Source of the DNA: Candidatus Gottesmanbacteria bacterium RBG_16_37_8
GTDB taxonomy: Bacteria; Patescibacteriota; Microgenomatia; 2-02-FULL-39-11
Length of the DNA: 43,379 nucleotides
Assembly (NCBI GenBank): GCA_001779055.1
Contig: MFJA01000011.1
Coordinates: 23,102 to 66,480, forward strand
Direction: 5' to 3'
The number at the start of each line of letters is the position of its first letter. The stretch's first letter is position 1. Made by a program: the position numbers and the translations under genes. Below the pieces are notes generated by a model that saw nothing but the letters and a program-made list of their open reading frames with translations, made no database searches and was not told the origin of the DNA. Below, one piece after another: positions 21,572-42,867 of this stretch.

Positions 21572-21621
21572 GCGTCAGCGAAGTCCCGATGAATATCGGG
21601 ATTGAACGGGTACAATGAACG

Positions 21622-22164: not shown

Positions 22165-22233
22165 CATTCCCCTTGTCATTAAAGCCCAATATATGACAAA
22201 ATAGATGTGTTATAAAAATTCATTTGAATTTCT

Positions 22234-22701: not shown

Positions 22702-23314
22702 AATTGATAAAAAAAATCATCTGCCCATTTTTAATAATACCCCTTCTTTCAGGGTTTTTTTTGCCGTACTTTTGATTATTCTGGCAGTTTTAGGAAGAAC
22801 AATTTTTCATTTGGGTGAAAATATCGAGTTTGTAACTGCTGCCTCGCTTTTAGCAGGCAGTTTCCTTGGTTTATTTTGGTCAATAACAGTTCCGCTGGTT
22901 TCTATGGCCATTAGCGATCTGATAATCGGCAATACCCTGATTTTCCTTTTCACCTGGAGTGCTTATTTAATAATAGGTATTCTTGGTTTTATATTTTTAC
23001 GCTCCTCGAAAGGAATTGTTTCACAGACTATTAAAGCAACCTTTACCGGAGTTCTTGCCTCTTTTGTCTTTTTTCTTTGGACTAATTTTGGCGTCTGGTT
23101 GCTTGACAGTTTCGGTATGTATTCTGATGGTTTGTCCGGACTCATAGAGTCTTATATTTTCGGCCTGCCTTTTTTAAAGATGAATCTGTTGGGAAATTTA
23201 TTTTTAGTACCCCTCTCCTTTATTCTTTTTCACCTGTTTCTCATTTTTTATCCGTCAATCTTTAAGTCTGCATCAAAGACTGAAAGAAGTTATATTAAAA
23301 AAGGAAGTTATTAA
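22658..23314 (+). CDS. DUF6580-like polytopic membrane protein, putative vitamin (B12) uptake component
   Basis: Motifs ...NIEFVTAASLLAGSFLG... and ...FFLWTNFGVWLLD...GLSGLIESYIFGLPFLKMNLLGNLFLVP. An in-frame GTG at 22691 is an alternative start and would cut the overlap with the upstream gene to 11 nt. Confidence 0.5.
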   Translation: MQVMSLNGNILVPNKIDKKNHLPIFNNTPSFRVFFAVLLIILAVLGRTIFHLGENIEFVTAASLLAGSFLGLFWSITVPLVSMAISDLIIGNTLIFLFTWSAYLIIGILGFIFLRSSKGIVSQTIKATFTGVLASFVFFLWTNFGVWLLDSFGMYSDGLSGLIESYIFGLPFLKMNLLGNLFLVPLSFILFHLFLIFYPSIFKSASKTERSYIKKGSY

Positions 23315-23319
23315 TAATC

Positions 23320-23784
23320 ATGCCTGCCCAATCAGCAAATACCACATCTTCTGCCGATCCCAAGTTTCCAACATCGACTCCTTCCTCCCAACCCGCCAAT
23401 GCTCCTGCTCAGGCTTCTGTTTCAATCCATGGCAAGGAAGCAGAAAGCACCCCTGTTATTAAAGGAGAAATTTCAGCATCAGAATCCCAGGAATTTGAAA
23501 TTCCCAAAGAAGTGGCCAGTGTTGGTGTCCGGGAAATTAAAGGAACAATAGAACTCCCCCCGGATGTAAAAAGGTTGGGTGTTGCGCCGTCAGGCTCTCA
23601 GACACCGGTAGTTTCTCTCCCCACAGTCTCTCTGCCGTTAACTGATGATAAAATTCTTCAGGGGGTCAATGCTCCGCTTACTTCCGCTTTTAAATGGCTG
23701 GCAGTTTGGTGCATTAAAAAACTTCAAAAAGCTCATCTTGTCCTGAAAAACATACATGGTAAAATCATTCGGGTTAAAAATTAA
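23320..23784 (+). CDS. hypothetical protein with a P/S/A-rich N-terminus and a basic amphipathic C-terminus
   Basis: 154 aa. Low-complexity N-terminal third and C-terminal ...SAFKWLAVWCIKKLQKAHLVLKNIHGKIIRVKN. It ends 15 nt upstream of the ATPase gene. Confidence 0.5.
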   Translation: MPAQSANTTSSADPKFPTSTPSSQPANAPAQASVSIHGKEAESTPVIKGEISASESQEFEIPKEVASVGVREIKGTIELPPDVKRLGVAPSGSQTPVVSLPTVSLPLTDDKILQGVNAPLTSAFKWLAVWCIKKLQKAHLVLKNIHGKIIRVKN

Positions 23785-23799
23785 ATCATAATTCTAATT

Positions 23800-27705: not shown

Positions 27706-27757
27706 ATTAACGAATTTATACTTCAATCCGATCATAGAAATCGCGCGCGCGAAATAA

Positions 27758-27785
27758 AGTCCGAATTTTTTCGTAAAGAGTCCAC
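27758..27785 (+). repeat. left copy of a perfect 28-bp direct repeat
   Basis: AGTCCGAATTTTTTCGTAAAGAGTCCAC, identical to 28549..28576. Confidence 0.95.
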
Positions 27786-27888
27786 AGCGTAAGAAATTTT
27801 TTCTTGAAAATTTCAACGCTGTTGGAACGTTTAAATCGAGGATTTATTACGTTCCACAGTTTTGAAGAAAAAGAATCATCTGGAAGAG

Positions 27889-28287
27889 TTATTCCAGTTT
27901 TAATAATTTTTTCTTTTCCTCAAATATTATTCTGAATCTTTTAAAGAATTCTTGTCTCCCCAGAAGATTAAAAGAAACTAAATATTCATGAGAAAAGACT
28001 ACCGGGCATAAAAATTCTTTTCCAGCGATTTGAATTTTTAATCTATGAATATATCCTTTAATATGTCCGCCAACTCCGCCCAAATAAATCTCTATACCTT
28101 TTTCAATCTCAATTCCCAACTGTTTTGCGACCTCTTTTTTAAAAACAGAGACAGTTGCTCCAGAATCAATTAAAGCCGCTGAATCAATAGTCGTGTTATT
28201 ATGATAAAAACGTAAAGGAATAATTGGGAAAGATTGGTTTTTAGCGTCTTGGCGATAGGGAAATACTTTTAAAGCGATTTTATCCAT
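27889..28287 (-). CDS. retropepsin-like (clan AA) aspartic protease
   Basis: 132 aa. The active-site motif ALIDSGATVSVF (D-S-G-A) and the single-lobe size are typical of homodimeric retropepsin-like proteins. Confidence 0.7.
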   Translation of the reverse strand: MDKIALKVFPYRQDAKNQSFPIIPLRFYHNNTTIDSAALIDSGATVSVFKKEVAKQLGIEIEKGIEIYLGGVGGHIKGYIHRLKIQIAGKEFLCPVVFSHEYLVSFNLLGRQEFFKRFRIIFEEKKKLLKLE

Positions 28288-28502
28288 AAAACATAAGGAC
28301 CTTCATCTTTTCTGGGCACTAAAAAAGAAAAGGGGGCTTCGCCTACTGGGGGTACTTTCTGATTTGTTGTGTGTGTTACCAGAGAAGCAATATCTTCTAA
28401 GGTTTCACCCACAGCTATTATTTTATCTTTTACAGGATCGATAACAATCCATTTACCTGCAAATTGCTCGATATCTTTGGTAGAAATATCTACTTTCTTC
28501 AT
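28269..28502 (-). CDS. small DUF5678-like protein, upstream partner of the protease
   Basis: 77 aa. FAGKWIVIDPVKDKIIAVGETLEDI resembles the GKWVA(I/V)...(I/V)(I/V)A.G pattern of DUF5678. It overlaps the protease gene by 19 nt. Confidence 0.55.
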   Translation of the reverse strand: MKKVDISTKDIEQFAGKWIVIDPVKDKIIAVGETLEDIASLVTHTTNQKVPPVGEAPFSFLVPRKDEGPYVLWIKSL

Positions 28503-28508
28503 AGGTTT

Positions 28509-28517
28509 ATTATAGCA
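28509..28517 (-). promoter_or_regulatory. extended -10 of the DUF5678/protease cassette (leaderless)
   Basis: The minus strand reads TGCTATAAT(28517..28509)-6 nt-ATG(28502). It lies inside the repeat-bounded segment. Confidence 0.4.
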
Positions 28518-28548
28518 TCTTCAGAAAGATAGCTTATCTTTGAAAATT

Positions 28549-28576
28549 AGTCCGAATTTTTTCGTAAAGAGTCCAC
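28549..28576 (+). repeat. right copy of the perfect 28-bp direct repeat
   Basis: AGTCCGAATTTTTTCGTAAAGAGTCCAC. Its last base is the first base of the stop-codon complement of gene 28576..29394. Confidence 0.95.
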
Positions 28577-33114: not shown

Positions 33115-34192
33115 CTTATACCAGCAAAAAATTTCATCTCAACAAGGACTCACCTTCGATGATGTTCTTCTTTTGCCAAATTATACCGAGATTAAGAGGG
33201 AGACAATTGATGTTTCCACCTGCCTGACAAAAAAAATAAAACTTCAAATTCCTCTTCTGTCAGCTCCAATGGATACCGTCACCGAAGACGAACTGGCTAT
33301 ATCACTTGGCAAATTGGGCGGTCTTGGGATTATCCACCGTAATTTGACCATCGTCAAACAGGTCAATGTAGTTGCCAAAGTTAAAAAAGAAATTGATTTG
33401 GTGGGAGCATCTGTTGGTATTGGCAGGGATTTACAGGAAAGGGTTATTGCGTTAGATAAGGCAGGTTGTAACGTCTTGGTTATTGACAGCGCCCACGGTT
33501 TTTCCAAATGGGTGATTGAGGCCACCCGTTATATCTCCGGCAAATTTCCTCATATTGAATTGATATCGGGAAGTGTAGCCACAGCGGGAGGTGCCAAAGC
33601 TTTAATTGAGGCTGGAGCAAAAGCTCTGCGGGTTGGCATGGGCCCCGGTTCAATTTGCACTACCAGATTAGTTGCCGGAATGGGTGTTCCCCAGATAACT
33701 GCTGTTTTGGAAACAGTCAAAATTGCCAGGAAATTTAATATCCCGGTTATTTCAGACGGCGGTTTGCGTTTCTCCGGCGATATCGTTAAAGCATTATCCT
33801 GCGGAGCCTCATCTGTTATGACCGGATCACTTCTGGCGGGAAGTAAGGAATCTCCCGGGAAAATAGTTACTCTTAAAGGTAAAAAGTATAAAAGTTACCG
33901 CGGTATGGGTTCGATAGCTGCTATGAGACAAGGCAGTGCTCAAAGATACGGTCAGGAGTATAGGAGAGGTCAGGAAAAAAAGCTGATCCCAGAAGGTGTT
34001 GAAGGTCTGGTTGCTTTTAAAGGTACCATCAAAGATATAGTTAATCAGTTAGTCGGCGGTTTAAAAACCGGCATGTACTACGCCGGTGTTAAAAATATAC
34101 GGGAACTTCAGGAGAATACACGTCTTATTAGGCTTACACAAGCGTCTTTAATCGAAAGCCACCCCCACAACATTATTGTAAAAGAATCATGA
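33101..34192 (+). CDS. guaB: IMP dehydrogenase lacking the CBS/Bateman subdomain
   Basis: Motifs LTFDDVLLLP, GIIHRN followed after only about 20 aa by VGASVG, GMGPGSICTTR (catalytic Cys), YRGMGS and EGVEG. The ATG at 33101 is preferred over the TTG at 33074. Confidence 0.85.
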   Translation: MDQSDLYQQKISSQQGLTFDDVLLLPNYTEIKRETIDVSTCLTKKIKLQIPLLSAPMDTVTEDELAISLGKLGGLGIIHRNLTIVKQVNVVAKVKKEIDLVGASVGIGRDLQERVIALDKAGCNVLVIDSAHGFSKWVIEATRYISGKFPHIELISGSVATAGGAKALIEAGAKALRVGMGPGSICTTRLVAGMGVPQITAVLETVKIARKFNIPVISDGGLRFSGDIVKALSCGASSVMTGSLLAGSKESPGKIVTLKGKKYKSYRGMGSIAAMRQGSAQRYGQEYRRGQEKKLIPEGVEGLVAFKGTIKDIVNQLVGGLKTGMYYAGVKNIRELQENTRLIRLTQASLIESHPHNIIVKES

Positions 34193-35706
34193 TATTAATA
34201 ATCGATTTCGGCTCTCAAACCTGTCATCTGATTAGCCGGCGAATAAAAGATCTGGGTGTTGCCACCGAGATTGTCCTGCCGCATAAAGTCTTATCCGTCC
34301 TCAAAGAAAAAAAACCCAAAGGGATAATTTTATCCGGAGGCCCCGCCTCGGTTTATGCCCCAAATGCGCTTCTGGTTGATGAAAAAATATTTGAACTGGC
34401 AGTTCCCGTCTTGGGAATCTGTTACGGTCTACAGATCATGGGGCAAATGTTGGGAGGAAAAGTTACTCCAGGGAGGAAAAAAGAATACGGCCCGACAATT
34501 TGCACTCTGAAATCAAATAATTCACTTTTTAAAGGACTGCCATCCAAAATGAAAGTCTGGATGAGTCATTTCGATACTGTCACCCTGCCTCCCCAAGGTG
34601 CAGCTATCATCGGTTCAACTCCCGAGGTTCCCGTGACCGCTATAGCTGATGAAAAGAAAAAATTTTACGGTGTCCAGTTTCACCCGGAAGTTCAACATAC
34701 GGAAAATGGCTCAATTATTCTAAAGAATTTTATTTTTCGAATCTGCGGAGAAACTTCAACAAAAAAAAATATCGATATAACTCAACTGGTAAAAAATATC
34801 AAAGAAACCATCAAAGATAGCCGTGCAGTTTGCGCTCTTTCAGGAGGAATTGATTCAACAGTTGCTGCAGTTTTAACTTATCAGGCAATCGGCAGTAGTC
34901 TGACCTGTTTTTATGTCGATACCGGTCTGATGCGTCTTGGTGAAACAGAAGAGGTAATAGAGAATTTTAAGAAAAATTTTAAATTTGATTTCCGGGTTAT
35001 CAATGCTGAAGAAATCTTCCTTTCAAAGCTTAAAGGCATCACCGATCCCGAGGAAAAAAGAAAAATCATCGGCGAAACCTTTATCAGAGTTTTTGAGTCA
35101 GAAGCCAAAAAATTAGCTGCCGAATTTCTTATCCAGGGAACAATTTATCCGGATGTTATAGAAAGCAAAGGTACTCTTCATGCTGAAAAAATAAAAACTC
35201 ATCATAATGTCGGCGGTTTGCCGGATAAACACGGATTTACCATAGTTGAACCTTTAAGAATGTTATATAAGGATGAAGTGAGACAAATAGCCAAAACATT
35301 GAAAATTCCCCAAAATATAATCCATCGTCACGTTTTTCCGGGTCCAGGCTTGGCTGTCAGAATAATCGGCGAAGTCAACAAAGAAAAACTGGAGATTTTA
35401 AGAAAGGCAGACTCAATTGTTATTGAAGAGATAAAAAAGGCAGGAATTTATGATGACATCTGGATGGCTTTTGCAGTTTTAACGGGAATTAAAACTACAG
35501 GTGTGGCCGGTGATGAAAGGAAATACGGTGAAACGATTGCCATAAGATGTATTGAGTCCAAAGATACCATGACCGCCGATTGGGTTCGTCTTCCCTATGA
35601 TTTGCTGGCCAGAATTTCAGAAAGAGTAGTCAATGAAGTCTTTGAGGTTGTCAGAGTGGTTTATGATATAACCACCAAACCTCCGTCAACCATGGAATGG
35701 GAATAA
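34189..35706 (+). CDS. guaA: GMP synthase (glutamine-hydrolysing)
   Basis: GATase motifs GICYGLQ and QFHPE. ATP-PPase P-loop ALSGGIDSTV. C-terminal KPPSTMEWE. Confidence 0.95.
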   Translation: MILIIDFGSQTCHLISRRIKDLGVATEIVLPHKVLSVLKEKKPKGIILSGGPASVYAPNALLVDEKIFELAVPVLGICYGLQIMGQMLGGKVTPGRKKEYGPTICTLKSNNSLFKGLPSKMKVWMSHFDTVTLPPQGAAIIGSTPEVPVTAIADEKKKFYGVQFHPEVQHTENGSIILKNFIFRICGETSTKKNIDITQLVKNIKETIKDSRAVCALSGGIDSTVAAVLTYQAIGSSLTCFYVDTGLMRLGETEEVIENFKKNFKFDFRVINAEEIFLSKLKGITDPEEKRKIIGETFIRVFESEAKKLAAEFLIQGTIYPDVIESKGTLHAEKIKTHHNVGGLPDKHGFTIVEPLRMLYKDEVRQIAKTLKIPQNIIHRHVFPGPGLAVRIIGEVNKEKLEILRKADSIVIEEIKKAGIYDDIWMAFAVLTGIKTTGVAGDERKYGETIAIRCIESKDTMTADWVRLPYDLLARISERVVNEVFEVVRVVYDITTKPPSTMEWE

Positions 35707-36033
35707 TTATAACCCCGCTCCTTTTAATCCGAAAAGGTAGGCTACCAATTGCACAATCCAATACGAGGTAAAAATTATAAAAAAACCGATTATTGCCTGA
35801 GTAATTTTTGTTTTCCCCATCTCCGTCTTTTTCGGGTCTCCCATCGAAGTCAGAAAATCAAATCCTCCCCAGATAAGATAAAGAAGAAGAGCAATGCCGG
35901 CCAAAGCCAATATCAGGGGAACAGCATTATTAACCAAAGACGCCAGATTAGTGAATTTTCCGGGTGGTAATGGTCCGCTTATTTTCCCTGTAACTCCGGG
36001 AATTATAAGTCCCTGTACTAATAAATAATCCAT
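35707..36033 (-). CDS. TrbC/VirB2-like small two-TM 'pilin' protein
   Basis: 108 aa. ...PLILALAGIALLLYLIWGGFDFLTSMGDPKKTEMGKTKITQAIIGFFIIFTSYWIVQLVAYL... It is a paralog of 1..301. Its stop abuts the guaA stop with no gap. Confidence 0.65.
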   Translation of the reverse strand: MDYLLVQGLIIPGVTGKISGPLPPGKFTNLASLVNNAVPLILALAGIALLLYLIWGGFDFLTSMGDPKKTEMGKTKITQAIIGFFIIFTSYWIVQLVAYLFGLKGAGL

Positions 36034-36047
36034 ATTTACCTTTATTA

Positions 36048-37481
36048 TTAATCAAATTCTGGTAAATCCAAAATATCAACGGCAATTATTCTCAAAAGAA
36101 AAATTGAAAAAATAATCAGCATCAGTCCTAACAAGGACGAAACGATAATTTCCTTGCCCATAGCTACCCTTTCCGGATTACCTCTTGATGTTAAGAAAAT
36201 AAACGCCCCGTATAGGAAGTACAGAAAGGCAATCGCCCCGGCAAATCCCAACCCTATCCCGAATAATTGGTCTTTAATAATGCTTCCCAGATCCGTTGAC
36301 AGACACCCGATAGCTGTCCATATTTTTGCTTTTTCTCCTTTACCCATGCAGTCCCAACATTTTCCTCTCAAATTATCCTCAGTTGTTAATTGATCACATA
36401 ATGGTGCCAGTGACTGATAAGGCGGAATTGACGGTTCCTCCGGTTGACAGAATGGGCATTTCTGTTTGCATATTGGAAAGTCACAACCGTTAACATCCGT
36501 ACATGGACTTGTCTTGCATTCAGCAGGAAGTGGCGGTTGACAGCAGACGAGCGTTCCTAAACAGAATTCATCACCCGGCGGAACCGGATCCGTACAGGAA
36601 TCATAGCGTTTGCATGAATTTGGAGAATTACATATATATGTACCTTTTTCCACTACTTCAAATGTTTTGGAGGCAAATATTGTATTCCCGAAACCATATT
36701 GAAGTTCAATAAGATGTGTACCCAAAGGTAATGGTTTTAAAACAAACCAAATATCCGATTTATCTGGACTAGTCATAGTACCGGGATCTTTTATAACAGG
36801 AGGACGAGGAAATCCACCGAGATTTTCATGGTCAAGTTTCGTTACATATACGGGTATATTTGCCTTATCGGCAAATGTGACAGTTATTTTCCATTCCGAA
36901 TCAAGATCATGTTTAAAATTTAAAGATTGGGCTTGGATATCAACATGAATATTACTTACCATGCTGTAATTTCCTTCACACAGGTTAAACTTGTCATTAT
37001 TAGAATCCCATGTCTGTAAATACAATTTAAAATCTCCTTCAGCCGAACGCCATCCAGCTGGTACAAAACCGCAATCATTAAACATCGGTCTTTCGTCAAT
37101 AATTTGGTCAGTCGTATTTTTTGGAGCTTGAGGGCGATTTCTGCAAATAGTATATCCAGCTTTAGGTGCCCAGGGAAAAGTTTGCAGGTTTTTTTCCAGG
37201 ATATCAGGAATTCCCTTATCCAGATCATAGAAGGTATATTTATTCCAGAATGATGTGGGAATTTTACTCAAATCAAATATAAATTTGACACTGTTTGTTC
37301 CCTGAGCAATTTTGTTTGTACTCTGATCCAGCATACAGTTCACCGGATCGATACATTGGACTTTAAAACCGCAGTCTGCATCAATAAAAGGAGCTTCTTG
37401 AGCTTTAACTTTTTCGTAAGGACGAAAAAGCAGAAATAGCGGAAGAAATATCAGAACGATAATAATTTTCAATATTTTCAT
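36048..37481 (-). CDS. secreted cysteine-rich protein with a C-terminal VirB2-like pilin module
   Basis: 477 aa. Signal peptide, then about 390 aa of ectodomain whose last third is packed with Cys (CNSPNSCKRYDSCTD...LVCCQPP...CKTSPCTDVNGCDFPICKQKCPFCQ). The C-terminus CWDC...WTAIGCLSTD...GAIAFLYFLYGAFIFLTSRGNPERVAMGKEIIVSSLLGLMLIIFSIFLLRIIAVDILDLPEF aligns with 37485..37967. Confidence 0.65.
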   Translation of the reverse strand: MKILKIIIVLIFLPLFLLFRPYEKVKAQEAPFIDADCGFKVQCIDPVNCMLDQSTNKIAQGTNSVKFIFDLSKIPTSFWNKYTFYDLDKGIPDILEKNLQTFPWAPKAGYTICRNRPQAPKNTTDQIIDERPMFNDCGFVPAGWRSAEGDFKLYLQTWDSNNDKFNLCEGNYSMVSNIHVDIQAQSLNFKHDLDSEWKITVTFADKANIPVYVTKLDHENLGGFPRPPVIKDPGTMTSPDKSDIWFVLKPLPLGTHLIELQYGFGNTIFASKTFEVVEKGTYICNSPNSCKRYDSCTDPVPPGDEFCLGTLVCCQPPLPAECKTSPCTDVNGCDFPICKQKCPFCQPEEPSIPPYQSLAPLCDQLTTEDNLRGKCWDCMGKGEKAKIWTAIGCLSTDLGSIIKDQLFGIGLGFAGAIAFLYFLYGAFIFLTSRGNPERVAMGKEIIVSSLLGLMLIIFSIFLLRIIAVDILDLPEFD

Positions 37482-37484
37482 TTT

Positions 37485-37967
37485 TTATCCGAATCCGGGA
37501 ATCTTTAGAATATCAAAGCCGATAACCCGCAGTAAAAATACCGAGAAAACAATAATCAGGATCCCCAAAATTGATGAGGTGATCATATCTTTTCCTGCCT
37601 GGATCTTTTCCGGATTGCCTGATGATGTCAGAACCGTCGCGCTTCCCCAAAGTACCGCCATAAAAGCAATTCCTCCGGCTGCTCCGAAAACAATGGTTAG
37701 TATCGACTGGACGAATTTTTCAGGCTTGGTAGAAAAACAGCCTAATACCGTATAGTAATTGCCTTTAAGTTCATTACCGCTTGAATCATAAAGGCATTGC
37801 CGGCAGGAGGTCCAGTCAGGGGGCTTGGGATTGATTGTCCGATTGCACCAGCCGCATAAATCACAGGTCGGTATTCCGGTTGGCGTCACTGCGGCAAAAA
37901 CAGGAGGATGAAAAAACCGGAATAATACAAATGTTAAGAATAAAAGAGGCAATAAAAGCCTGGGCAT
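37485..37967 (-). CDS. secreted Cys-containing protein with a C-terminal VirB2-like pilin module
   Basis: 160 aa. Signal peptide, CDLCGWC...CRQC...YTVLGCFSTKPE...GGIAFMAVLWGSATVLTSSGNPEKIQAGKDMITSSILGILIIVFSVFLLRVIGFDILKIPGF. Confidence 0.65.
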   Translation of the reverse strand: MPRLLLPLLFLTFVLFRFFHPPVFAAVTPTGIPTCDLCGWCNRTINPKPPDWTSCRQCLYDSSGNELKGNYYTVLGCFSTKPEKFVQSILTIVFGAAGGIAFMAVLWGSATVLTSSGNPEKIQAGKDMITSSILGILIIVFSVFLLRVIGFDILKIPGFG

Positions 37968-37974
37968 TAAAATT

Positions 37975-38004
37975 AGTGTAACAGATCGGGATCTGTTCCC
38001 TCAA
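37975..38004 (-). promoter_or_regulatory. promoter of the pilin operon (leaderless)
   Basis: The minus strand reads TTGAGG(38004..37999)-18 nt-TACACT(37980..37975)-7 nt-ATG(37967). It uses the same TACACT -10 as the pilin-like gene at 301. Confidence 0.35.
37980..37997. promoter_or_regulatory. perfect palindrome (operator candidate) in the divergent pilin/spoIID control region
   Basis: AACAGATC-GG-GATCTGTT. It lies in the spacer of the minus-strand promoter and over the -35 position of the plus-strand promoter. Confidence 0.45.
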
Positions 38005-38007
38005 CAT

Positions 38008-38015
38008 TGTATAAT
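38008..38015 (+). promoter_or_regulatory. -10 element (TGTATAAT) 7 nt upstream of the spoIID-like GTG start
   Basis: TATAAT at 38010..38015, preceded by TG. The GTG at 38023 opens a clear signal peptide, so it is the real start. Confidence 0.35.
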
Positions 38016-38022
38016 TAAACCT

Positions 38023-39744
38023 GTGCCCAAACTGAAAATAGTTTCCATATTCTTGTTTCTTGTTTCTTGTTTCTTGTTTCTTAATGCTCGTCTGGTTATG
38101 GCTGACGAGCTTGAAGAAATTGAAAAAAAATTATCTGATTTAAAGCGTGCTTTGCAAATGTCTATTGCCGCCACCTCCCCCCTGGAAAAAAACCTGACTA
38201 CTTTGCAAAAAAACCTCTCTGAAATCCAGAGTAAAATAACTATTATTGAAGCTGATGTAGTTTTGAAAGAAAAGGAAGTCTTGGAAGGCGAAAAACTGCT
38301 GATTTTAGCCCAGGAATTATTAGGCCAGAAGGTCCGCCAGATTTATATTTCTTCCTCTCAATTCAACAGTACCAAAGTACTTCTTCTTCTAGGAAAAAAT
38401 CTCAATCTGACACTAAGGCAGTTTGGCTACCAGAAAAAGGCTATCGAAAATGACCGCGATACCATAGTCAAAGTAGTTCTCTATATCAAAGACCTGGAAA
38501 ATAAGAAAAAAACTCTCGAAAGTGAAAAAGTCAGATTGGCAAGCGTCAAAAAAGAAACTGATAACCAGGCCCAGTTTTTACAAAAAGAAATAACCGGAGC
38601 CAAAAAATATCAGGGTACACTGTCTAGTCAGATAGCTCAGCTGTCTGCTCGCCAGCAACAGTTACTAGTCCAAAAGCTGGAAAGCCTGCATCTGCCGACA
38701 TCCTTAGGTGCAGGACCTCTCTTTTGTACTGATGACAGAAAGCTTGACCCCGGTTTTTCTCCTTCCTTTGCGGCATTTACATATGGCATACCCCACCGGG
38801 TGGGTATGAATCAGTATGGTGCTTTAGGACGAGCTAAATCCGGACAAAATCATAAGGACATCCTCAATGCCTATTATCAGGGGATTAGTTTTGAGACCAG
38901 AGACTCCAATATGAAAATTAAAGTCCAGGGCTACGGTGAAAAAAATCTGGATGAATACCTGCTGGGAATCTATGAAATGCCGGACAGTTGGCCGCTTGAA
39001 GCTTTAAAAGCTCAAGCTGTTGCCGCCCGTTCTTATGCTTTAGCCTATACCAATAACGGACAGAGTGAAATCTGCACCACCCAAGCCTGTCAGGTTTATA
39101 AGGGAGGCAACAAAGGCGGCAATTGGGAAAAAGCCGTCAATGATACCAAAGGTGAAATCATGGTCTATCAGGGGGAAATTGTTAAAGCCTGGTACGCTTC
39201 AACTTTCGGCGGTTTCTCTTTTACCTCAGGTGATGTCTGGGGTTCGGACCGGGGATATACCAGAAGAATGAGAGACACAAGTGGTGATGTTGGCAGTTTT
39301 TCCGATCTGTCAGAAAAAGCATATGACCGAGAATCTCCCTGTTTCTATGCCGCCCAGGGTTTTAGGAGTGAGTATGCCAAATCAGCCTGGCTCAAGTCTG
39401 ATGAAGTAGCCGATATAGTCAACGTGCTTCTTCTTGCCAAAAACGATGGGACAACCCAATCTCACTTATCTCAAATCGATAAACCAAATCCTGACGGTGT
39501 TGATACTTGGGATGCCGGTCGCGTTAAAAGTGAATTGAAAAACCGCGGGATTACCCCCTATAATTCCATCTCGCAGGCAAGTGTCGATTGGGATAAGGGA
39601 GGAGGCAAAGTCAACTCCATATCTATCCAGGGTGATGCAGGAACAAGTTCCTTCGATGGAACGGAATTCAGAAACTTTTTTAATTTGCGGGCACCGGCCA
39701 ATATTCAAATCGTCGGCCCGTTATATAATATTGAAAGAAAATAA
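38023..39744 (+). CDS. SpoIID/LytB-domain peptidoglycan-remodelling protein with an N-terminal coiled coil
   Basis: Signal peptide ending VMA|DE, then about 180 aa of heptad-rich coiled coil. SpoIID signature: GIPHRVGMNQYGALGRA...LEALKAQAVAARSYAL...CTTQACQVYKG. Confidence 0.8.
   Translation: MPKLKIVSIFLFLVSCFLFLNARLVMADELEEIEKKLSDLKRALQMSIAATSPLEKNLTTLQKNLSEIQSKITIIEADVVLKEKEVLEGEKLLILAQELLGQKVRQIYISSSQFNSTKVLLLLGKNLNLTLRQFGYQKKAIENDRDTIVKVVLYIKDLENKKKTLESEKVRLASVKKETDNQAQFLQKEITGAKKYQGTLSSQIAQLSARQQQLLVQKLESLHLPTSLGAGPLFCTDDRKLDPGFSPSFAAFTYGIPHRVGMNQYGALGRAKSGQNHKDILNAYYQGISFETRDSNMKIKVQGYGEKNLDEYLLGIYEMPDSWPLEALKAQAVAARSYALAYTNNGQSEICTTQACQVYKGGNKGGNWEKAVNDTKGEIMVYQGEIVKAWYASTFGGFSFTSGDVWGSDRGYTRRMRDTSGDVGSFSDLSEKAYDRESPCFYAAQGFRSEYAKSAWLKSDEVADIVNVLLLAKNDGTTQSHLSQIDKPNPDGVDTWDAGRVKSELKNRGITPYNSISQASVDWDKGGGKVNSISIQGDAGTSSFDGTEFRNFFNLRAPANIQIVGPLYNIERK
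38051..38082 (+). repeat. heptanucleotide tandem repeat (TCTTGTT, 4 copies plus a partial one) inside the spoIID-like signal-peptide codons
   Basis: tcttgtt tcttgtt tcttgtt tcttgtt tctt. It encodes FLFLVSCFLFL. Confidence 0.9.
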
Positions 39745-39745
39745 A

Positions 39746-40360
39746 ATGCCGGAAATATTTGTTTCACCAGACTCCAGTCACGCTCCTATAAAAACTGGCA
39801 ATTTAAATAAGCCTCATCCTTTATCTGCCTTCATGTTTATGCCAGACGGTATAAGCTTTGAGAATCAGGAGCCGGACGAAACCATAGTTCTTTTATTAAG
39901 AAAACATTTTATTACCAATCTTTCCTGGTTGTTTATAAGTTTTATTCTTCTGTTAATTCCAATTACTTTTTTCCCTTTTATTGTCATTAATAATCTCATT
40001 CCCCAGCTGCCGCTTGCTTTTTTCAGATTAGTAACTCCTGTCTGGTATCTTTTTACGGCAAGTTATATTCTGGTTAATTTTTTAATGTGGTATTTTACTA
40101 TCTCGATAGTCACTACCGAAAGAATTCTTGATATCGATTTTATTAATCTCTTAAATAAAAAAGTCGCTGAAACCAGATTGACAAAAGTCGAAGATGTTAC
40201 CCAGAGAACCGGCGGCTTTATGGAAGCTTTTTTTGACTACGGTAATGTCATTGTCCAAACCGCCGGAGCAGAAGCGGTTTTTCTTTTTCATGCTGTTCCC
40301 AAACCCCAGCAGGTTGTCAGGATTATCAATCAGCTTCTGGAAAGGGAAGAAGAACAGTAG
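39746..40360 (+). CDS. membrane protein, two TM segments followed by a bacterial PH-like (YdbT/DUF304-like) domain
   Basis: The ATG at 39746 lies 1 nt after the spoIID stop. ETIVLLLRKHFITNLSW, two TM segments, then ...IVTTERILDIDF...VEDVTQRTGGFMEAFFDYGNVIVQTAG. Confidence 0.55.
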   Translation: MPEIFVSPDSSHAPIKTGNLNKPHPLSAFMFMPDGISFENQEPDETIVLLLRKHFITNLSWLFISFILLLIPITFFPFIVINNLIPQLPLAFFRLVTPVWYLFTASYILVNFLMWYFTISIVTTERILDIDFINLLNKKVAETRLTKVEDVTQRTGGFMEAFFDYGNVIVQTAGAEAVFLFHAVPKPQQVVRIINQLLEREEEQ

Positions 40361-40364
40361 TTTT

Positions 40365-40616
40365 ATGCCTACAGATGAATTTATTCTGGATTTAATAAGC
40401 AAATTACCCTTTATCTTGATTAGAATTTTTACGGTAATTCTTCTTTTGATGCATCTTCTTTTCTCGGTAGTTATTGTCAGACAAACCAGAATTTTATCAA
40501 AAATTGTGGAAGCCAAATTCTCTCCGACTATCCAGTTAATCTCTGTTCTTCATTTAATGGCTTCACTTGGTGTTTTGCTTTTTACCATAATCTATTTGTT
40601 CTTTTTGAATCTATGA
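40365..40616 (+). CDS. small two-TM membrane protein
   Basis: The ATG at 40365 lies 4 nt after the upstream stop. 83 aa, MPTDEFILDLISKLPFILIRIFTVILLLMHLLFSVVIVRQ...; overlaps the next gene by ATGA. Confidence 0.5.
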   Translation: MPTDEFILDLISKLPFILIRIFTVILLLMHLLFSVVIVRQTRILSKIVEAKFSPTIQLISVLHLMASLGVLLFTIIYLFFLNL

Positions 40617-42400
40617 ATTATCAATACCGTTCAGCCAAAATAACTTCTCCTTCAACGGAAATTTATTGGGGCGGCTGTTTTGTTGAAAATGAACTGATAG
40701 TTCTATTGGAAATTGGTTGCGATGGTTCAATTCCGGCTTCTCATCTTGGAAAGAATGTTTTTGATTCTCTGCTTGCCTTATTCAAAGAGCTTCCTTCAAA
40801 AGATAAAGATGCTGTTAAAACTCTTCTTAAAGATATATCCGGTTTCTCCTTCATAAAAACAGCCTTAATAGGCATTATCTCTGATTCACGGATTTATCTT
40901 GGTTGTCAGGGTAAAGGTCAGGCGGTTCTCATAAGAGATGAAGAAGTAGGTGCCATAGTTTCAGGCGGCTTCATTTCTCAAGGTCAAGTAGAAATAAATG
41001 ACCGGATAATTTTCCATTCCGACCATCTGGCTGAAATTTTGGGTACAAAAACTTTGGACAAAATTTATCATGCCCAGCTCCTTGAAGATTTTGAAGAAGA
41101 ATTAGGCGGCATTCTGTCAAGTAGTGAAAAGGCCAAAGGCTTGGCTGTGCTTGAACTGGTTATTACCGCCAAAAAAACTTTACCGGAAATAAATAGTATC
41201 AATAAATTAACCGGACTTTCCGCCCAAAAGTATATCATCTCGTTTTTACTTGAAAAATATAATCAAATTAAAACTTTCTATACCCGTAAAACCGGACGCC
41301 AAAAATTTTTCCTGATAGCGCTCTTTATTCTTTTTGTTTTTTTTATACTTAATACCTTTTCAGGTTATATCCGTTCCAATAATTCTCAAAAATTAAAACA
41401 ATTAAACGAGTCGCTAAGTCAGGTTAATCAGCAATTCGAAGAAGCTGGAGCTCTTTTAGAGTTAAATCCGGTAAGGTCAAGAGAGCTTCTGGGAAGCGCC
41501 AAATTAACCGTCAGTCAACTTTTGTCAAAAACAAAAAAGAATTCCAGGGAATACAAACTCTTAGCTGAATGGTTTGAAAAAATATCATCATCAGAAATCG
41601 GTGCCTATAAAATCTATAAGTTAACAGCGGTTCCCGTCTTCTTTGATATTTCCTTAATCAAGCCGGAAGGCCGGGCTGATCTGATTTCAACTTATCAGGA
41701 TAAGAACGTCATTTTGGACCGCCAAAATAAAACCCTTTATTTTTTGGACACATCAACCAAGCAGTCGGCAGTTTTAGCCGGCAGTGATGTTGTTAAAAAT
41801 GCCCAAACAGTAGCCATTCACGGAAATAATGCTTATGTTCTCAGTGATGACGGTATCTTTACAATAGATATTGAAAAAAAGACTGCCGAAAAGGTTATAG
41901 AGCATGATAGCAGCTGGGGGGACATAGCTTCATTTCAGGCTTTTGCCGCTAATCTTTATCTTCTGGACAGGAAAAATAATACTATCTGGAAATATCTCTC
42001 AACAGAAACCGGTTTTTCAGATAGACGCAGTTATCTCAATGCCGGAATTGGAGTCAGTTTGGCCGCCATGACTCAAATGAATATAGACGGTTCTATCTAT
42101 GTAACCGGCGGCAATGAAATCATAAAATTTACACAAGGAGCAAAAGACCAGTTTTCTTTAAAAGGTTTGGCAGACACCGTTAGTAAAATTGACTCATTCT
42201 CAACCAGTGAAAATGATAAAAATATCTATATTTTGGATAAAACCTTAAAAAGAATTGTTGTTTTTGATAAAGAAGGTTTATATCATTCCCAATATCAATG
42301 GGAGGATTTAGGTCAGGCTCAATCAATCGTCGCCTCAGAATCCGCAGGTTTTATTTTTGTCCTGATCGGTAATAAAATCTACTCCATCGATATTAAATAA
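40613..42400 (+). CDS. bitopic membrane protein: cytoplasmic N-domain, one TM segment, extracytoplasmic beta-propeller-like repeats
   Basis: 595 aa. TM segment FFLIALFILFVFFILNTF near residue 235. The C-terminal half has about 6 repeats of a hydrophobic strand motif: LYFLD, AYVLSDDGIF, LYLLDRKNNTIW, IYVTGGNEI, IYILDKTLKRIVVFD and IFVLIGNKIYSID. Confidence 0.55.
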   Translation: MNYQYRSAKITSPSTEIYWGGCFVENELIVLLEIGCDGSIPASHLGKNVFDSLLALFKELPSKDKDAVKTLLKDISGFSFIKTALIGIISDSRIYLGCQGKGQAVLIRDEEVGAIVSGGFISQGQVEINDRIIFHSDHLAEILGTKTLDKIYHAQLLEDFEEELGGILSSSEKAKGLAVLELVITAKKTLPEINSINKLTGLSAQKYIISFLLEKYNQIKTFYTRKTGRQKFFLIALFILFVFFILNTFSGYIRSNNSQKLKQLNESLSQVNQQFEEAGALLELNPVRSRELLGSAKLTVSQLLSKTKKNSREYKLLAEWFEKISSSEIGAYKIYKLTAVPVFFDISLIKPEGRADLISTYQDKNVILDRQNKTLYFLDTSTKQSAVLAGSDVVKNAQTVAIHGNNAYVLSDDGIFTIDIEKKTAEKVIEHDSSWGDIASFQAFAANLYLLDRKNNTIWKYLSTETGFSDRRSYLNAGIGVSLAAMTQMNIDGSIYVTGGNEIIKFTQGAKDQFSLKGLADTVSKIDSFSTSENDKNIYILDKTLKRIVVFDKEGLYHSQYQWEDLGQAQSIVASESAGFIFVLIGNKIYSIDIK

Positions 42401-42408
42401 TTTGTTTT

Positions 42409-42867
42409 ATGAAAGTAGTCAACCGCCGCGCTTTACATGATTATCAGGTCTTGGAAACTTTTCAAACCGGAATTGTTTTAATCGGACCCGAAGTCAAATC
42501 AGTTAGAGGCGGTAAAATTTCTCTAGAAGGATCCTTTGTCAAAATTATTGGCAGTGAAATCTATCTGCTTAATGCCCAGATTTTCCCATATCCTTATGCC
42601 CGTCCGCCGGCTGGCGGATATGATCCGAAGCGTACCCGTAAACTTCTCATGCACAAACGGGAGATTATATCTTTAAAGACCAAACTTTCCTCAGCTGAAT
42701 TGACCTTAGTCCCCCTCGAATGTTATAATTCGGAAGGTCTTTTCAAGCTGACAATTGCTTTAGCCCGCGGTAAAAAAGAGTATCAGAAGCGGGAAAAATT
42801 AAGAAGACGAGCTATTGATAGGGAAACCGAAAGAGAATTGAAAAGTCATTTGCCGACTAAAGACTAA
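42409..42867 (+). CDS. smpB: SsrA-binding protein
   Basis: Motifs NRRALHDYQVLETFQTGIVLIGPEVKSVR, GSFV and KRTRKLLMHKREI. Confidence 0.95.
   Translation: MKVVNRRALHDYQVLETFQTGIVLIGPEVKSVRGGKISLEGSFVKIIGSEIYLLNAQIFPYPYARPPAGGYDPKRTRKLLMHKREIISLKTKLSSAELTLVPLECYNSEGLFKLTIALARGKKEYQKREKLRRRAIDRETERELKSHLPTKD

What the first reader, a model, noticed from the sequence alone, without database searches (positions are those of the whole stretch)
35707..37967. Three tandem VirB2/TrbC-like 'pilin' paralogs, two fused to cysteine-rich ectodomains
The three consecutive minus-strand genes (160, 477 and 108 aa) all end in the same module. That module is TM helix, a short loop with S/T-x-G-(N/D)-P-(E/K), a GK motif, and a second TM helix. 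The two larger proteins share an extended alignment: C..C...W/Y T..GC(L/F)ST...G.AG.IAF...TS.GNPE...GK..I.SS.LG..II.FS.FLLR.I..DIL..P.F. They place this module behind signal-peptide-led ectodomains. The 477-aa protein carries roughly 30 Cys, most of them packed into about 90 residues. A fourth small paralog sits at 1..301 and has the same TACACT promoter geometry. One hairpin carrying ectodomains of very different size looks like a modular surface filament or adhesin family rather than a classical conjugative pilin. No VirB4, VirB6 or relaxase gene is nearby. For a likely episymbiotic, reduced bacterium this could be the host-attachment or DNA-uptake structure. As far as I know it has not been characterised functionally.
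Basis: partly seen in the sequence, partly recalled or inferred. Interest (0 to 1): 0.8.

Follow-up and report, generated by a model that had tools for sequence, protein, structure and literature searches.

The report
Patescibacterial pilin operon with variable adhesin
Three neighbouring genes of an ultra-small groundwater bacterium (Candidatus Gottesmanbacteria) encode members of an already catalogued family of secretion-system "pilin" proteins. The middle one is new in that it carries a large surface domain that is swapped between related species, as a host-recognition module would be.

Summary
Three minus-strand ORFs of 160, 477 and 108 aa lie at 35707..37967 and a cut fourth at 1..301. All end in the same two-helix hairpin. 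They match Pfam PF18895 (T4SS_pilin): three pass the curated cut-off and the 477-aa protein misses it by 0.8 bit. The Cys count was overstated (22, not about 30).

The window comes from Candidatus Gottesmanbacteria RBG_16_37_8. Tandem VirB2-like pilin arrays in Patescibacteria are published (Wang 2023; Quinonero-Coronel 2025), so the core finding is known.

What I found beyond the literature I searched:
- The order 160 / large / ~105 aa is conserved in 10 species-level loci.
- The array is always paired divergently with a SpoIID–bPH–DUF5657–~600 aa block, also in more distant lineages.
- The 477-aa protein is bimodular: signal peptide, two Ig-like β-sandwiches, a Cys-rich stalk, then the hairpin.
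- Its ectodomain is a replaced cassette: 22% identity across species against 53–61% for everything else, and no DNA similarity to the closest relative exactly over 36325..37474.

Direct homology to classical VirB2/TrbC is not demonstrated. No VirB4 gene lies within 10 kb in any locus examined.

Best model: minor, adhesin-bearing subunits of a VirB2/PrgF-like filament. This is inferred, not shown.

The parts
37485..37967 (-). p160: signal peptide (aa 1-25), small 5-Cys knob plus a conserved Cys before TM1 (CDLCGWC...CxxC...YTVLGC), then PF18895 hairpin ending KIPGFG. It is the conserved first gene of the operon.
   Evidence: PF18895, 31.3 bits; 130 homologs; 100% identical to A2W14_05750 of Gottesmanbacteria RBG_16_37_8; 61% mean identity across 10 species.
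36048..37481 (-). p477: bimodular pilin. Signal peptide aa 1-27; β-rich ectodomain about aa 30-280; Cys-rich stalk aa 284-345; 4-Cys neck aa 356-397; hairpin helices aa 398-431 and 436-470.
   Evidence: PF18895, 25.8 bits; 22 Cys; 30 homologs of 340-517 aa; AlphaFold2, pLDDT 74; Foldseek: tandem Ig/FN3-like β-sandwiches.
36325..37474 (-). Variable cassette inside p477, coding for aa ~3-385 (signal peptide, ectodomain and stalk). It has no nucleotide similarity to the closest relative, although both flanks align at 73-75% identity.
   Evidence: blastn window vs L009; BLASTP aligns only aa 305-477; ectodomain 22% vs C-terminal part 53% identity across 10 species; ectodomain detectable by phmmer in only 2 other species.
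36051..36290 (-). Hairpin module of p477 (aa 398-477).
   Evidence: 46% identical to the p160 hairpin.
35707..36033 (-). p108: plain pilin with no signal peptide. It has a 28-aa N-tail and two helices, 30-61 and 67-100. Its stop codon abuts the stop codon of the convergent guaA.
   Evidence: PF18895, 44.9 bits; TrbC E=0.0027; NF045849, E=3.6e-7; AlphaFold2, pLDDT 83; 12,641 representative homologs.
37968..38004 (-). Promoter-like site of the operon: TTGAGG (38004..37999), 18-nt spacer, TACACT (37980..37975), 7 nt, then ATG. The geometry suggests a leaderless or near-leaderless transcript. It shares a 55-bp divergent intergenic region with the SpoIID gene.
   Evidence: TGnTA(C/G)ACT conserved in L001, L003 and L007.
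1..301 (-). p100: fourth paralog of the p108 type, with its C-terminus cut by the window edge. Its promoter TTGACA (337..332)-18-TACACT (313..308)-6-ATG lies just outside these coordinates.
   Evidence: PF18895, 28.3 bits; NF045849, E=4.4e-6; 41% identical to the p108 hairpin.
38023..42400 (+). Divergently transcribed conserved partner block. It comprises a SpoIID-type lytic transglycosylase with an N-terminal coiled coil (38023..39744), a bPH_2-like membrane protein (~39743..40360), a DUF5657 2-TM protein (~40380..40616), and a 595-aa protein with a cytoplasmic domain, one TM and a β-rich ectodomain (40613..42400).
   Evidence: SpoIID; the same block lies divergent from a pilin array in every related locus, including non-Gottesmanbacteria lineages; TM predictions.
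23800..26145 (+). T4SS coupling-protein-like ATPase (VirD4/TraD/TrwB-like) with an N-terminal TM region and Walker A GKTGVGKS. It is the 12th gene from p108. Treat it as context, not a demonstrated part.
   Evidence: (a T4CP at the same gene distance in GWA2_43_14).

Best explanation
The three genes are one operon of Candidatus Gottesmanbacteria RBG_16_37_8. It encodes three paralogs of the patescibacterial VirB2-like 'T4SS_pilin' family (Pfam PF18895).

Each protein inserts in the cytoplasmic membrane as a helical hairpin. The N- and C-termini face outside and the short positively charged loop faces the cytoplasm.

Most likely model (inferred): the hairpins are extracted from the membrane and polymerised into a VirB2/PrgF-type filament. 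This would be done by the VirB4-based, monoderm-type T4SS that the genome encodes elsewhere.
- The plain 108-aa protein would be the bulk subunit.
- The 160-aa and 477-aa proteins would be low-copy or tip subunits. Pilin termini lie on the outer face of such filaments, so these subunits would display their N-terminal domains outward.
- The 477-aa protein would present two Ig-like domains on a Cys-rich stalk. This domain is exchanged between species, so it is the probable host-cell recognition/adhesion module.
- The divergently encoded SpoIID-type lytic transglycosylase is a candidate for opening the cell wall, the VirB1-like role.

Shown: family membership, hairpin topology and fold, operon structure, conservation of the gene trio, cassette-like variability of the ectodomain, and linkage to the SpoIID block.

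Inferred: polymerisation, dependence on VirB4, the roles of the three subunits, and the adhesin function.
For: - Family membership: PF18895 hits for all four paralogs; 12,641 representative homologs.
- Links to conjugative systems, all weak: NCBIfam Mbov_0395 'pilin-like conjugal transfer protein' of Mycoplasma ICEs at E=3.6e-7 to 3.2e-5 over almost the whole model; Pfam TrbC E=0.0027 for p108; hhalign of the family profile against pCF10 PrgF aligns the whole hairpin at E=0.0021.
- Fold: the AlphaFold2 model of p108 is a two-helix hairpin with pLDDT 83. The Foldseek hit with the highest probability is the Aeropyrum pernix conjugation pilus 8dfu (rank 2, TM 0.55/0.68).
- Literature: PF18895 pilins sit near virB4 in 1135 of 1948 assemblies, and arrays of 2-11 genes are common in Microgenomatia (PMC12102498). 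The source genome is scored VirB4-positive (Table S1). The pilin array is essential in S. epibionticum (PMC10633639). In solved pili the termini face outward and the loop faces the lumen, and Gram-positive PrgF behaves as a VirB2 (bioRxiv 10.64898/2025.12.18.695078).
- Constraint on the hairpin: it is as conserved as the neighbouring enzyme (53-61% vs SpoIID 56%), while the ectodomain is at 22%. This argues against a passive anchor.
- Cassette replacement of the ectodomain.
- Ig/FN3-like ectodomain.
- Gene trio conserved in 10 of 10 species loci.
Against: - No VirB4, VirB6 or VirB3 gene lies in the 43-kb window. The ORFs I scanned next to the arrays in three related loci (L008, L018, L021) also gave no such Pfam hit.
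- No related locus has a copy of the window's T4CP-type ATPase within ±10 kb of the array.
- Homology to bona fide VirB2 is not demonstrated. hhalign against an Agrobacterium VirB2 profile gives probability 0.3%. A profile search of PDB sequences finds no pilin. Foldseek E-values are all ≥1.
- A 40-kDa domain on every subunit could not pack on a VirB2-type filament, so the model needs sub-stoichiometric incorporation, which is untested.
- p108 has no signal or leader peptide, unlike classical VirB2/TraA.
- There are no expression, localisation or imaging data for this organism.
Confidence: 0.5

Rival explanations
1. The hairpin is a conserved membrane anchor and oligomerisation module, not a filament subunit. 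The proteins stay in the cytoplasmic membrane. They display Cys-rich or Ig-like ectodomains as ordinary surface proteins (adhesins or receptors), independently of any T4SS.
For: - There are no T4SS channel genes within 10 kb in any of the ~15 loci with this array type.
- VirB2 homology is statistically unproven.
- Bulky ectodomains are hard to fit on a pilus.
- Many family members are poly-hairpin proteins with 2-6 modules per ORF, which look more like polytopic membrane proteins.
Against: - Hairpin sequences are far more conserved than a passive anchor needs.
- Plain ~105-aa members with no ectodomain are always co-encoded. They would have nothing to anchor.
- Elsewhere in the phylum the same family is encoded next to virB4 and is essential (PMC12102498, PMC10633639).
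Confidence: 0.28
2. The array and the divergent SpoIID–bPH_2–DUF5657–595-aa block form one conserved envelope module of Microgenomatia. It would be a cell-wall-spanning or cell-wall-remodelling structure, for example at the division site or the host-contact site. The hairpin proteins would be its membrane and surface components. Assembly would not involve VirB4.
For: - The divergent pairing is seen in every locus recovered, through a short shared intergenic region (55 bp in the window). This includes Daviesbacteria, UBA1449 and three unclassified lineages, while the opposite flank varies between guaA and the mevalonate cluster.
- A second lysozyme-like protein (SLT_3) follows the array in L008 and L023.
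Against: - SmpB, a housekeeping gene, is part of the same conserved block, so the pairing may be inherited gene order within one class.
- The block contains no ATPase to energise assembly.
- The 595-aa, bPH_2-like and DUF5657 proteins have no known function.
Confidence: 0.15
3. The genes encode small pore-forming or lytic membrane proteins (holin- or bacteriocin-like). Alternatively, the resemblance among the ORFs is a compositional artefact of hydrophobic helices.
For: Small two-TM proteins encoded next to peptidoglycan hydrolases recall holin-endolysin pairs.
Against: - The family HMM hits are specific, with conserved loop and neck motifs.
- The genes show conserved chromosomal synteny among housekeeping genes in 10 species.
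- There are no phage genes in the window.
- Ig-like ectodomains with signal peptides are not holin features.
Confidence: 0.03

Closest known systems
Patescibacterial VirB2-like pilin arrays (Pfam PF18895 T4SS_pilin; Wang et al. 2023, PMC10633639; Quinonero-Coronel et al. 2025, PMC12102498)
   Same: - Same Pfam family.
- Same tandem arrangement of sequence-divergent paralogs. Cross-class hairpin identity here is 27-31% and within-class identity 41-46%, against the published mean of 25% and maximum of 54%.
- Same phylum and class (Microgenomatia).
- No relaxase nearby.
   Different: - This array is not next to virB4. It is fixed beside a SpoIID block instead.
- It has a constant three-gene format.
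- Its middle member is a 426-527-aa bimodular protein with a cassette-like Ig-type ectodomain. None of the papers I could search describes this feature.
- The orthologous trio of GWA2_43_14 (KKS95642-44) is absent from the stored copy of that paper's Table S3.
Classical conjugative pilins VirB2/TrbC/TraA (Pfam PF04956; T-, F- and RP4 pili)
   Same: Two hydrophobic helices joined by a short charged loop. Predicted N-out/C-out topology. The C-terminus ends in Gly, as in VirB2.
   Different: - No significant profile or structure match.
- The loop is longer, with a conserved G(N/D)P.
- There are large N-terminal domains.
- There is no long leader peptide in p108.
- There is no adjacent VirB machinery.
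- Cyclisation and lipid binding are unknown.
PrgF_B2 of pCF10 and the Mbov_0395 'pilin-like' proteins of Mycoplasma ICEs (VirB2-like proteins of monoderm MPF-FATA systems)
   Same: - Monoderm context. Patescibacterial VirB4 groups with MPF-FATA (PMC12102498).
- Full-length hairpin alignment, with the loop DP motif and the Y-x-I-x-Q motif in helix 2.
- NF045849 hits at E about 1e-6 to 1e-7.
   Different: The scores are below the curated cut-offs. Those proteins are 75-80 aa with no ectodomain. They are encoded inside conjugation operons on mobile elements.
Archaeal Ced/Ted DNA-import pili (CedA1/TedC; PDB 8dfu; PMC9905601)
   Same: This is the most probable structural match for p108. It is a chromosomal, relaxase-free VirB2-like filament used for uptake rather than conjugation.
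   Different: The match is not significant (E=2). Those pili are archaeal, have no ectodomain fusions, and are encoded with CedA and CedB.
Modular type IV pilins (e.g. Streptococcus sanguinis PilB and PilC) and VirB5 tip adhesins: functional analogues only, cited from my own knowledge
   Same: The concept is the same: a polymerisation module fused to, or capped by, an adhesive module, incorporated at low copy number.
   Different: The folds and machineries are unrelated. There is no class III signal peptide here. In those pilins the adhesive module is C-terminal, whereas here it is N-terminal.
VirB2 paralog arrays of Bartonella and Anaplasma (cited in PMC12102498)
   Same: Tandem, divergent pilin paralogs thought to vary the surface or host interaction.
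   Different: In those arrays the variation lies within the small pilin itself. Here the hairpin is conserved and an appended domain varies.

Membership tests
Pfam PF18895 T4SS_pilin (patescibacterial VirB2-like pilins) | Sequence scores above the curated gathering threshold (26.6 bits) | tested here: met
   p108 scores 44.9, p160 31.3 and p100 28.3 bits. p477 scores 25.8 bits, 0.8 below the threshold, but its homologs carry precomputed PF18895 hits and its hairpin is 46% identical to that of p160.
Pfam PF18895 T4SS_pilin (patescibacterial VirB2-like pilins) | Two-helix membrane hairpin with a short charged connecting loop | tested here: met
   Hydropathy. AlphaFold2 helices at 30-61/67-100 in p108 and 398-431/436-470 in p477.
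Patescibacterial pilin arrays (PMC12102498) | Two to eleven pilin genes in tandem, or separated by one non-pilin gene, with low identity among the paralogs | tested here: met
   Three adjacent genes. Hairpin identities are 29-46%. In L003 and L007 a NYN-domain gene is intercalated.
Patescibacterial pilin arrays (PMC12102498) | Encoded near virB4 (within ±20 CDS), true for 1135 of 1948 assemblies | tested here: not met
   - There is no VirB4-like ORF in the window, which extends about 35 kb on one side of the array and 5.4 kb on the other.
- The related loci L008, L018 and L021 gave no VirB4-like hit in the ORFs I scanned next to their arrays.
- In the other related loci only a copy of the window's T4CP-type ATPase was searched for, and none lies within ±10 kb.
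- The source genome is VirB4-positive elsewhere (Table S1).
VirB2/TrbC conjugative pilins (Pfam PF04956) | Score above the PF04956 gathering threshold (27.9 bits) | tested here: not met
   Only p108 hits, at 18.3 bits and E=0.0027, though it covers model positions 35-97 of 98.
VirB2/TrbC conjugative pilins (Pfam PF04956) | Profile-profile similarity to bona fide VirB2 | tested here: not met
   hhalign of the CPR pilin profile A3 against a profile of 32 Agrobacterium/Rhizobium-type VirB2 sequences (A6) gives probability 0.3% and E=0.21. The VirB2 profile is narrow, so this is a weak negative.
VirB2/TrbC conjugative pilins (Pfam PF04956) | Fold match to solved conjugative pilus subunits | tested here: inconclusive
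   Foldseek against the PDB gives no hit with E≤0.001. The A. pernix conjugation pilus 8dfu ranks 2nd (probability 0.85, TM 0.55/0.68). A helical hairpin is too simple a fold to discriminate.
VirB2/TrbC conjugative pilins (Pfam PF04956) | Polymerises into an extracellular, usually lipid-containing, helical filament on a VirB6 platform | not testable with these tools
   No multimer prediction was available and no experimental data exist.
Monoderm VirB2-like proteins (PrgF_B2; NCBIfam NF045849 Mbov_0395 family) | Score above the NF045849 cut-off (40 bits), or significant profile similarity to PrgF | tested here: inconclusive
   NF045849 scores are 29.8 bits (p108), 26.3 (p100) and 23.5 (p160), with E from 3.6e-7 to 3.2e-5, all below the cut-off. 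hhalign of A3 against the single PrgF sequence gives E=0.0021 and probability 13% over 62 columns.
Type IV (class III signal peptide) pilins | N-terminal prepilin leader ending in G, followed by a hydrophobic helix with E5 | tested here: not met
   Direct reading of the four N-termini. They show Sec-type AXA signal peptides or no leader, and no G|F/M-xxxE motif.
Diversity-generating retroelement targets | A template/variable repeat pair and a reverse transcriptase near the variable region | tested here: not met
   No repeat involves 36325..37474 anywhere in the window. The Pfam scans found no RT gene.

The most novel reading that the evidence does not exclude
Microgenomatia build a VirB2/PrgF-like filament from a conserved trio of subunits. 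One subunit is a 'modular T4SS pilin' that displays a hypervariable, horizontally exchangeable Ig-like adhesin on a disulfide-rich stalk. This module would determine which host cell the episymbiont attaches to. The adjacent SpoIID-type lytic transglycosylase block would be its dedicated cell-wall passage and assembly module, taking the place of VirB1 and working at a distance from VirB4.
Probability: 0.3. Interest if true: 0.75.

Novelty: new variant of a known kind. Interest (0 to 1): 0.5.

Why it matters
How ultra-small Patescibacteria recognise and exploit host cells is largely unknown. Their T4SS and pilin arrays are essential in the one genetically tractable species, but the function is described as completely unknown (PMC11665869).

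If VirB2-like hairpins can carry large, species-specific Ig-like domains, three things follow:
- The variable cassette becomes a concrete candidate for the host-range determinant.
- It gives a handle for antibodies or binders to visualise the structure.
- It gives a marker for linking symbiont strains to hosts in metagenomes.

It would also extend the repertoire of T4SS pilins, so far thought to be ~70-residue proteins, to bimodular subunits. This parallels modular type IV pilins.

The constant SpoIID partner suggests where to look for the missing VirB1 function in this class.

Tried and rejected
- **Exact look-ups of window proteins.** p477, p160 (P0031) and the sigma factor either were not on record or returned only 1-kb contigs, so I could not see beyond the window ends.
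- **Profile of 53 CPR pilins against PDB sequences.** Only spurious hits came back: a designed repeat protein and GPCRs.
- **hhalign against an Agrobacterium-type VirB2 profile.** No relationship was found.
- **pCF10 PrgF against Pfam and NCBIfam.** Only sub-threshold hits to Maff2, DUF4134 and NF045849. This does not help to bridge the families.
- **Foldseek of the full p477 model.** It returns antibodies and FN3 modules, which shows generic tandem β-sandwiches and no specific adhesin family.
- **The search for related loci with a diverse alignment.** It failed for lack of a conserved stretch. The single-protein scan recovered only 13 loci.
- **A DGR as the cause of the variability.** Rejected, because no repeats involve the cassette.
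- **ATPase co-occurrence.** A T4CP lies at the same gene distance in GWA2_43_14. It is absent within 10 kb wherever the flank is the mevalonate cluster, so this is collinearity and not functional linkage.
- **'VirB4 proximity' in Table S3 for GWA2_43_14.** It refers to a different pilin pair (#906/907) on another contig, not to this trio.
- **The 595-aa partner protein.** It has no Pfam, NCBIfam or PDB sequence match.


Full report
**Observation**

The region 35707..37967 holds three tightly packed minus-strand ORFs:
- p160 at 37485..37967
- p477 at 36048..37481
- p108 at 35707..36033

The gaps between them are 3 nt and 14 nt. The p108 stop codon abuts the stop codon of the convergent guaA. 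A fourth paralog, p100, occupies 2..301(-) and is cut by the window edge.

Each protein ends in two strongly hydrophobic stretches joined by a short loop of the form (T/A)S.G(N/D)P..., followed by (G/A)K. p160 and p477 begin with Sec-type signal peptides. They share a four-Cys 'neck' (C-x12-13-CxxC-x14-18-(W/Y)TxxGC) and the C-terminal DILxxPxF(G/D).

p477 has 22 Cys, 16 of them in residues 284-393.

The promoter remark is correct. TTGAGG-18-TACACT-7-ATG precedes p160 and TTGACA-18-TACACT-6-ATG precedes p100. These are the only two TACACT-N4-9-ATG matches in the window. TGnTA(C/G)ACT is conserved upstream of p160 orthologs. The spacing implies a leaderless or nearly leaderless mRNA; this is an inference.

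**What the proteins are**

All four match Pfam PF18895 'T4SS_pilin':
- p108: 44.9 bits
- p160: 31.3 bits
- p100: 28.3 bits
- p477: 25.8 bits, against a cut-off of 26.6

[quoted passage not shown] The rest of the window is an ordinary chromosome segment of such an organism. It carries a mevalonate pathway, two PBP1 genes, a class II RNR, purine salvage genes, SpoIID, SmpB and toxin-antitoxin pairs.

The family is very large. phmmer with p108 against 1.84 billion representatives gives 12,641 hits at E≤0.001.

**What is already known**

- Wang et al. 2023 (PMC10633639) found an essential series of predicted pilins in the T4SS cluster of Southlakia epibionticum.
- Quinonero-Coronel et al. 2025 (PMC12102498) screened 3,035 Patescibacteria genomes with PF18895 and PF04956. 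The source genome was included and scored VirB4-positive.
  - They reported VirB2-like pilins in 1,948 VirB4-containing assemblies, and 441 arrays of 2-11 pilin genes.
  - The arrays were especially common in Microgenomatia and Saccharimonadia, with 25% mean identity within an array.
  - The systems are related to monoderm MPF-FATA T4SS and mostly lack relaxases. T4CP homologs are usually encoded far from virB4.
- A 2025 review calls these the only monoderm T4SS with potential pili (PMC12857230).
- A December 2025 preprint shows that Gram-positive PrgF is itself a VirB2-like, pilus-forming protein. In it the termini face outward and the loop faces the lumen.

So 'tandem VirB2-like pilin paralogs in a CPR genome' is a known phenomenon.

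**Is the hairpin really VirB2-like?**

The tests give weak but mutually consistent signals. None is significant.
- Pfam TrbC/VirB2: E=0.0027 for p108 only, below the cut-off.
- NCBIfam Mbov_0395 'pilin-like conjugal transfer protein' of Mycoplasma ICEs: E=3.6e-7, 4.4e-6 and 3.2e-5 over almost the whole model, below the cut-off.
- hhalign of a 53-sequence family profile against pCF10 PrgF: E=0.0021, probability 13%. The full hairpin aligns, and the loop DP and helix-2 Y-x-I-x-Q motifs match.
- hhalign against an Agrobacterium-type VirB2 profile: probability 0.3%.
- The same family profile against PDB sequences: no pilin.
- The AlphaFold2 model of p108 is a clean two-helix hairpin with pLDDT 83. 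Foldseek finds nothing at E≤0.001. The hit with the highest probability is the Aeropyrum pernix conjugation pilus 8dfu (rank 2, TM 0.55/0.68).

I therefore file the proteins under PF18895 with confidence. I treat 'homologous to VirB2' as plausible but untested. The link to T4SS rests mainly on published gene neighbourhoods elsewhere in the phylum.

**What this locus adds**

*(1) A conserved trio.* A scan of GTDB species genomes with p160, plus contig look-ups, recovered 10 distinct Gottesmanbacteria species-level loci. My ORF and HMM map shows the same order in all of them: ~160 aa, then a 426-527-aa protein, then ~105 aa. In L003 and L007 a NYN-domain gene is intercalated.

*(2) A constant partner.* The trio is always divergent from a block SpoIID–bPH_2-like–DUF5657–~600 aa–SmpB. 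The other flank is either guaA or the mevalonate/UPPS cluster. The same divergent pairing with arrays of 2-8 pilins recurs in Daviesbacteria (L018), UBA1449 (L020) and unclassified lineages (L008, L023, L024). In those loci the array starts with an N-extended, Cys-rich pilin. The SpoIID protein is a genuine homolog of the sporulation lytic transglycosylase.

*(3) A bimodular pilin.* The AlphaFold2 model of p477 (pLDDT 74) shows, in order:
- a signal peptide
- a β-rich ectodomain, most confident over residues ~150-280
- a Cys-rich segment at 284-345
- two short helices and a β-hairpin at 359-395
- the hairpin helices at 398-431 and 436-470

Foldseek matches the ectodomain to two-domain Ig/FN3-like β-sandwiches: Fabs, the CbhA Fn3-like modules and the CbpF-CEACAM1 complex entry 9gh5_D.

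*(4) Cassette-like variability.* Mean pairwise identities across the 10 species:

| Part | Mean identity |
|---|---|
| p160 | 61% |
| p108 | 55% |
| Last 125 residues of the large protein | 53% |
| SpoIID | 56% |
| N-terminal part of the large protein | 22% |

Only two other species have a phmmer-detectable homolog of the p477 ectodomain. In the database search, 4 of 30 homologs align over the full length at 43-50% identity. Three more cover 87-99% of the query at only 30-32% identity. Most of the rest share little beyond the C-terminal stalk and hairpin.

The closest relative, L009, has a p160 that is 89% identical. Against it, blastn aligns window 42853..37475 at 75% identity and 36324..34192 at 73%. 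Nothing aligns in between. BLASTP aligns only residues 305-477. The unalignable segment, 36325..37474, is the ectodomain-coding part. No repeat or DGR-like template explains it.

*(5) Family-wide modularity.* Among the 150 best representative hits to p108:
- 58 are plain ~100-130-aa pilins.
- 27 have N-terminal extensions of more than 60 aa with the hairpin at the extreme C-terminus. Two of these that I read (P0177, P0208) combine a signal peptide with a Cys-rich ectodomain.
- 65 contain 2-6 hairpin modules in one ORF.

*(6) Missed by the census.* The orthologous trio of Gottesmanbacteria GWA2_43_14 (KKS95642-44) does not appear among the VirB2 homologs in the stored copy of Table S3 of PMC12102498. 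That table lists another pilin pair near that genome's VirB4. None of the papers I could search mentions ectodomain-bearing T4SS pilins, DUF5657 or the SpoIID pairing.

**Context genes**

The 781-aa ATPase at 23800..26145 is a T4SS coupling-protein homolog. It hits TrwB, TraD, CD1115-type VirD4 and DotL, and has an N-terminal TM region and a Walker A motif. It is the 12th gene from p108. A T4CP sits at the same gene distance in GWA2_43_14. It is not within 10 kb where the flank is the mevalonate cluster, so I read this as collinearity.

The window contains no VirB4, VirB6, VirB3 or relaxase gene. ORFs next to the arrays in three related loci (L008, L018, L021) also gave none.

**Mechanism**

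Topology follows from the signal peptides and the positively charged loop: N-out, C-out, loop in the cytoplasm. This is the topology of VirB2-type pilins before extraction.

In every solved VirB2-type pilus the termini lie on the outer surface. An N-terminal fusion would therefore be displayed outward. A ~40-kDa domain cannot sit on every subunit of such a filament. The economical model is:
- p108 is the bulk subunit.
- p160 and p477 are low-copy or tip subunits.
- The exchangeable Ig-like module of p477 serves host recognition.
- The SpoIID enzyme is a candidate for the VirB1 role that most of these genomes lack (PMC12102498).

I give this model about 0.5.

Rivals:
- Non-polymerising surface proteins on a conserved hairpin anchor: 0.28.
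- A T4SS-independent envelope module together with the SpoIID block: 0.15.
- A holin-like system or an artefact: about 0.03.

The high conservation of the hairpin relative to the ectodomain argues against a passive anchor. So does the obligatory presence of domain-less hairpins. The absence of nearby T4SS channel genes keeps the rivals alive.

**Verdict**

Its core, a pilin paralog array of a CPR bacterium, is already known and catalogued.

New at the level of a variant are the conserved trio, its SpoIID partner and the bimodular pilin with a replaceable Ig-like ectodomain. These give a testable candidate for a host-specificity determinant. Interest is 0.5.

Noticed in passing
P0151 (552 aa), P0152, P0154, P0159 and others among the hits: Many PF18895 family members are 'poly-pilins'. 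65 of the 150 best representative hits carry 2-6 tandem hairpin modules in a single ORF. For example, P0151 is a signal peptide plus six modules joined by short linkers. Whether these are processed into monomers or act as polytopic proteins is unknown.
   Followed up: partly
window 38023..42867 (+); also L001, L003, L007-L020 and L024: The block SpoIID (with N-terminal coiled coil), bPH_2-like membrane protein, DUF5657 (2 TM), ~600-aa protein (cytoplasmic domain, 1 TM, β-rich ectodomain) and SmpB is conserved. In every related locus it is divergently paired with a pilin array, including Daviesbacteria and unclassified Patescibacteria. I found no literature on DUF5657 or on the 600-aa protein.
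   Followed up: partly
window 37968..38004 (-) and 308..337 (-): Both pilin promoters place TACACT (extended TGnTACACT in orthologs) only 6-7 nt before the ATG, with no Shine-Dalgarno sequence. This predicts leaderless transcripts. By contrast, p108 has an AAAGG ribosome-binding site inside the operon.
   Followed up: partly
window 23320..26145 (+): A VirD4/TraD-like coupling-protein ATPase (781 aa, N-terminal TM region, Walker A GKTGVGKS) is preceded by a 154-aa Pro/Ser/Thr-rich ORF with no family match. It is the 12th gene from p108, and a T4CP lies at the same gene distance in Gottesmanbacteria GWA2_43_14.
   Followed up: partly
window 27751..28576: 35-nt direct repeats (91% identical) at 27751-27785 and 28542-28576 flank a retropepsin-like aspartyl protease gene (27889..28287, minus strand). 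This may be a small inserted element.
   Followed up: no
window 9604..14947: Two class A PBP paralogs (752 and 753 aa) share ~75% DNA identity over segments of up to 239 nt. They flank a MazE-like antitoxin / PIN toxin pair (11923..12618).
   Followed up: no
window 18754..23314: A cobalamin-linked cluster: NrdR, a class II ribonucleotide reductase with a TSCPD domain, a cobalamin adenosyltransferase, DUF4430 and DUF6580 (possible B12 uptake components).
   Followed up: no
window 1833..9083: A complete mevalonate-pathway gene cluster plus UPP synthase. In several relatives (L003, L007, L012, L024) this cluster directly abuts the pilin array, so the window shows a rearranged order. The lone pilin p100 lies next to the ECF sigma factor at the far end of the cluster.
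   Followed up: partly
L013, L015, L016, L021 (GTDB genome records): Records titled 'uncultured Gammaproteobacteria bacterium' carry loci collinear with Gottesmanbacteria, with 55-71% identical p160 orthologs in L013, L015 and L016. The taxonomy labels of these MAG records look wrong.
   Followed up: no
L003 19261..19623: A bAvd / 23S_rRNA_IVP-type gene (an accessory protein of diversity-generating retroelements) is inserted in the mevalonate cluster of a related Gottesmanbacteria genome. There is no DGR signature in the window itself.
   Followed up: no
L008 9108..11117 and L023 3970..5964: In the 8-pilin arrays of a more distant lineage, the last pilin gene is followed by a ~665-aa protein with a C-terminal SLT_3 lysozyme-like domain. 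The arrays there are therefore bracketed by two different peptidoglycan hydrolases.
   Followed up: no
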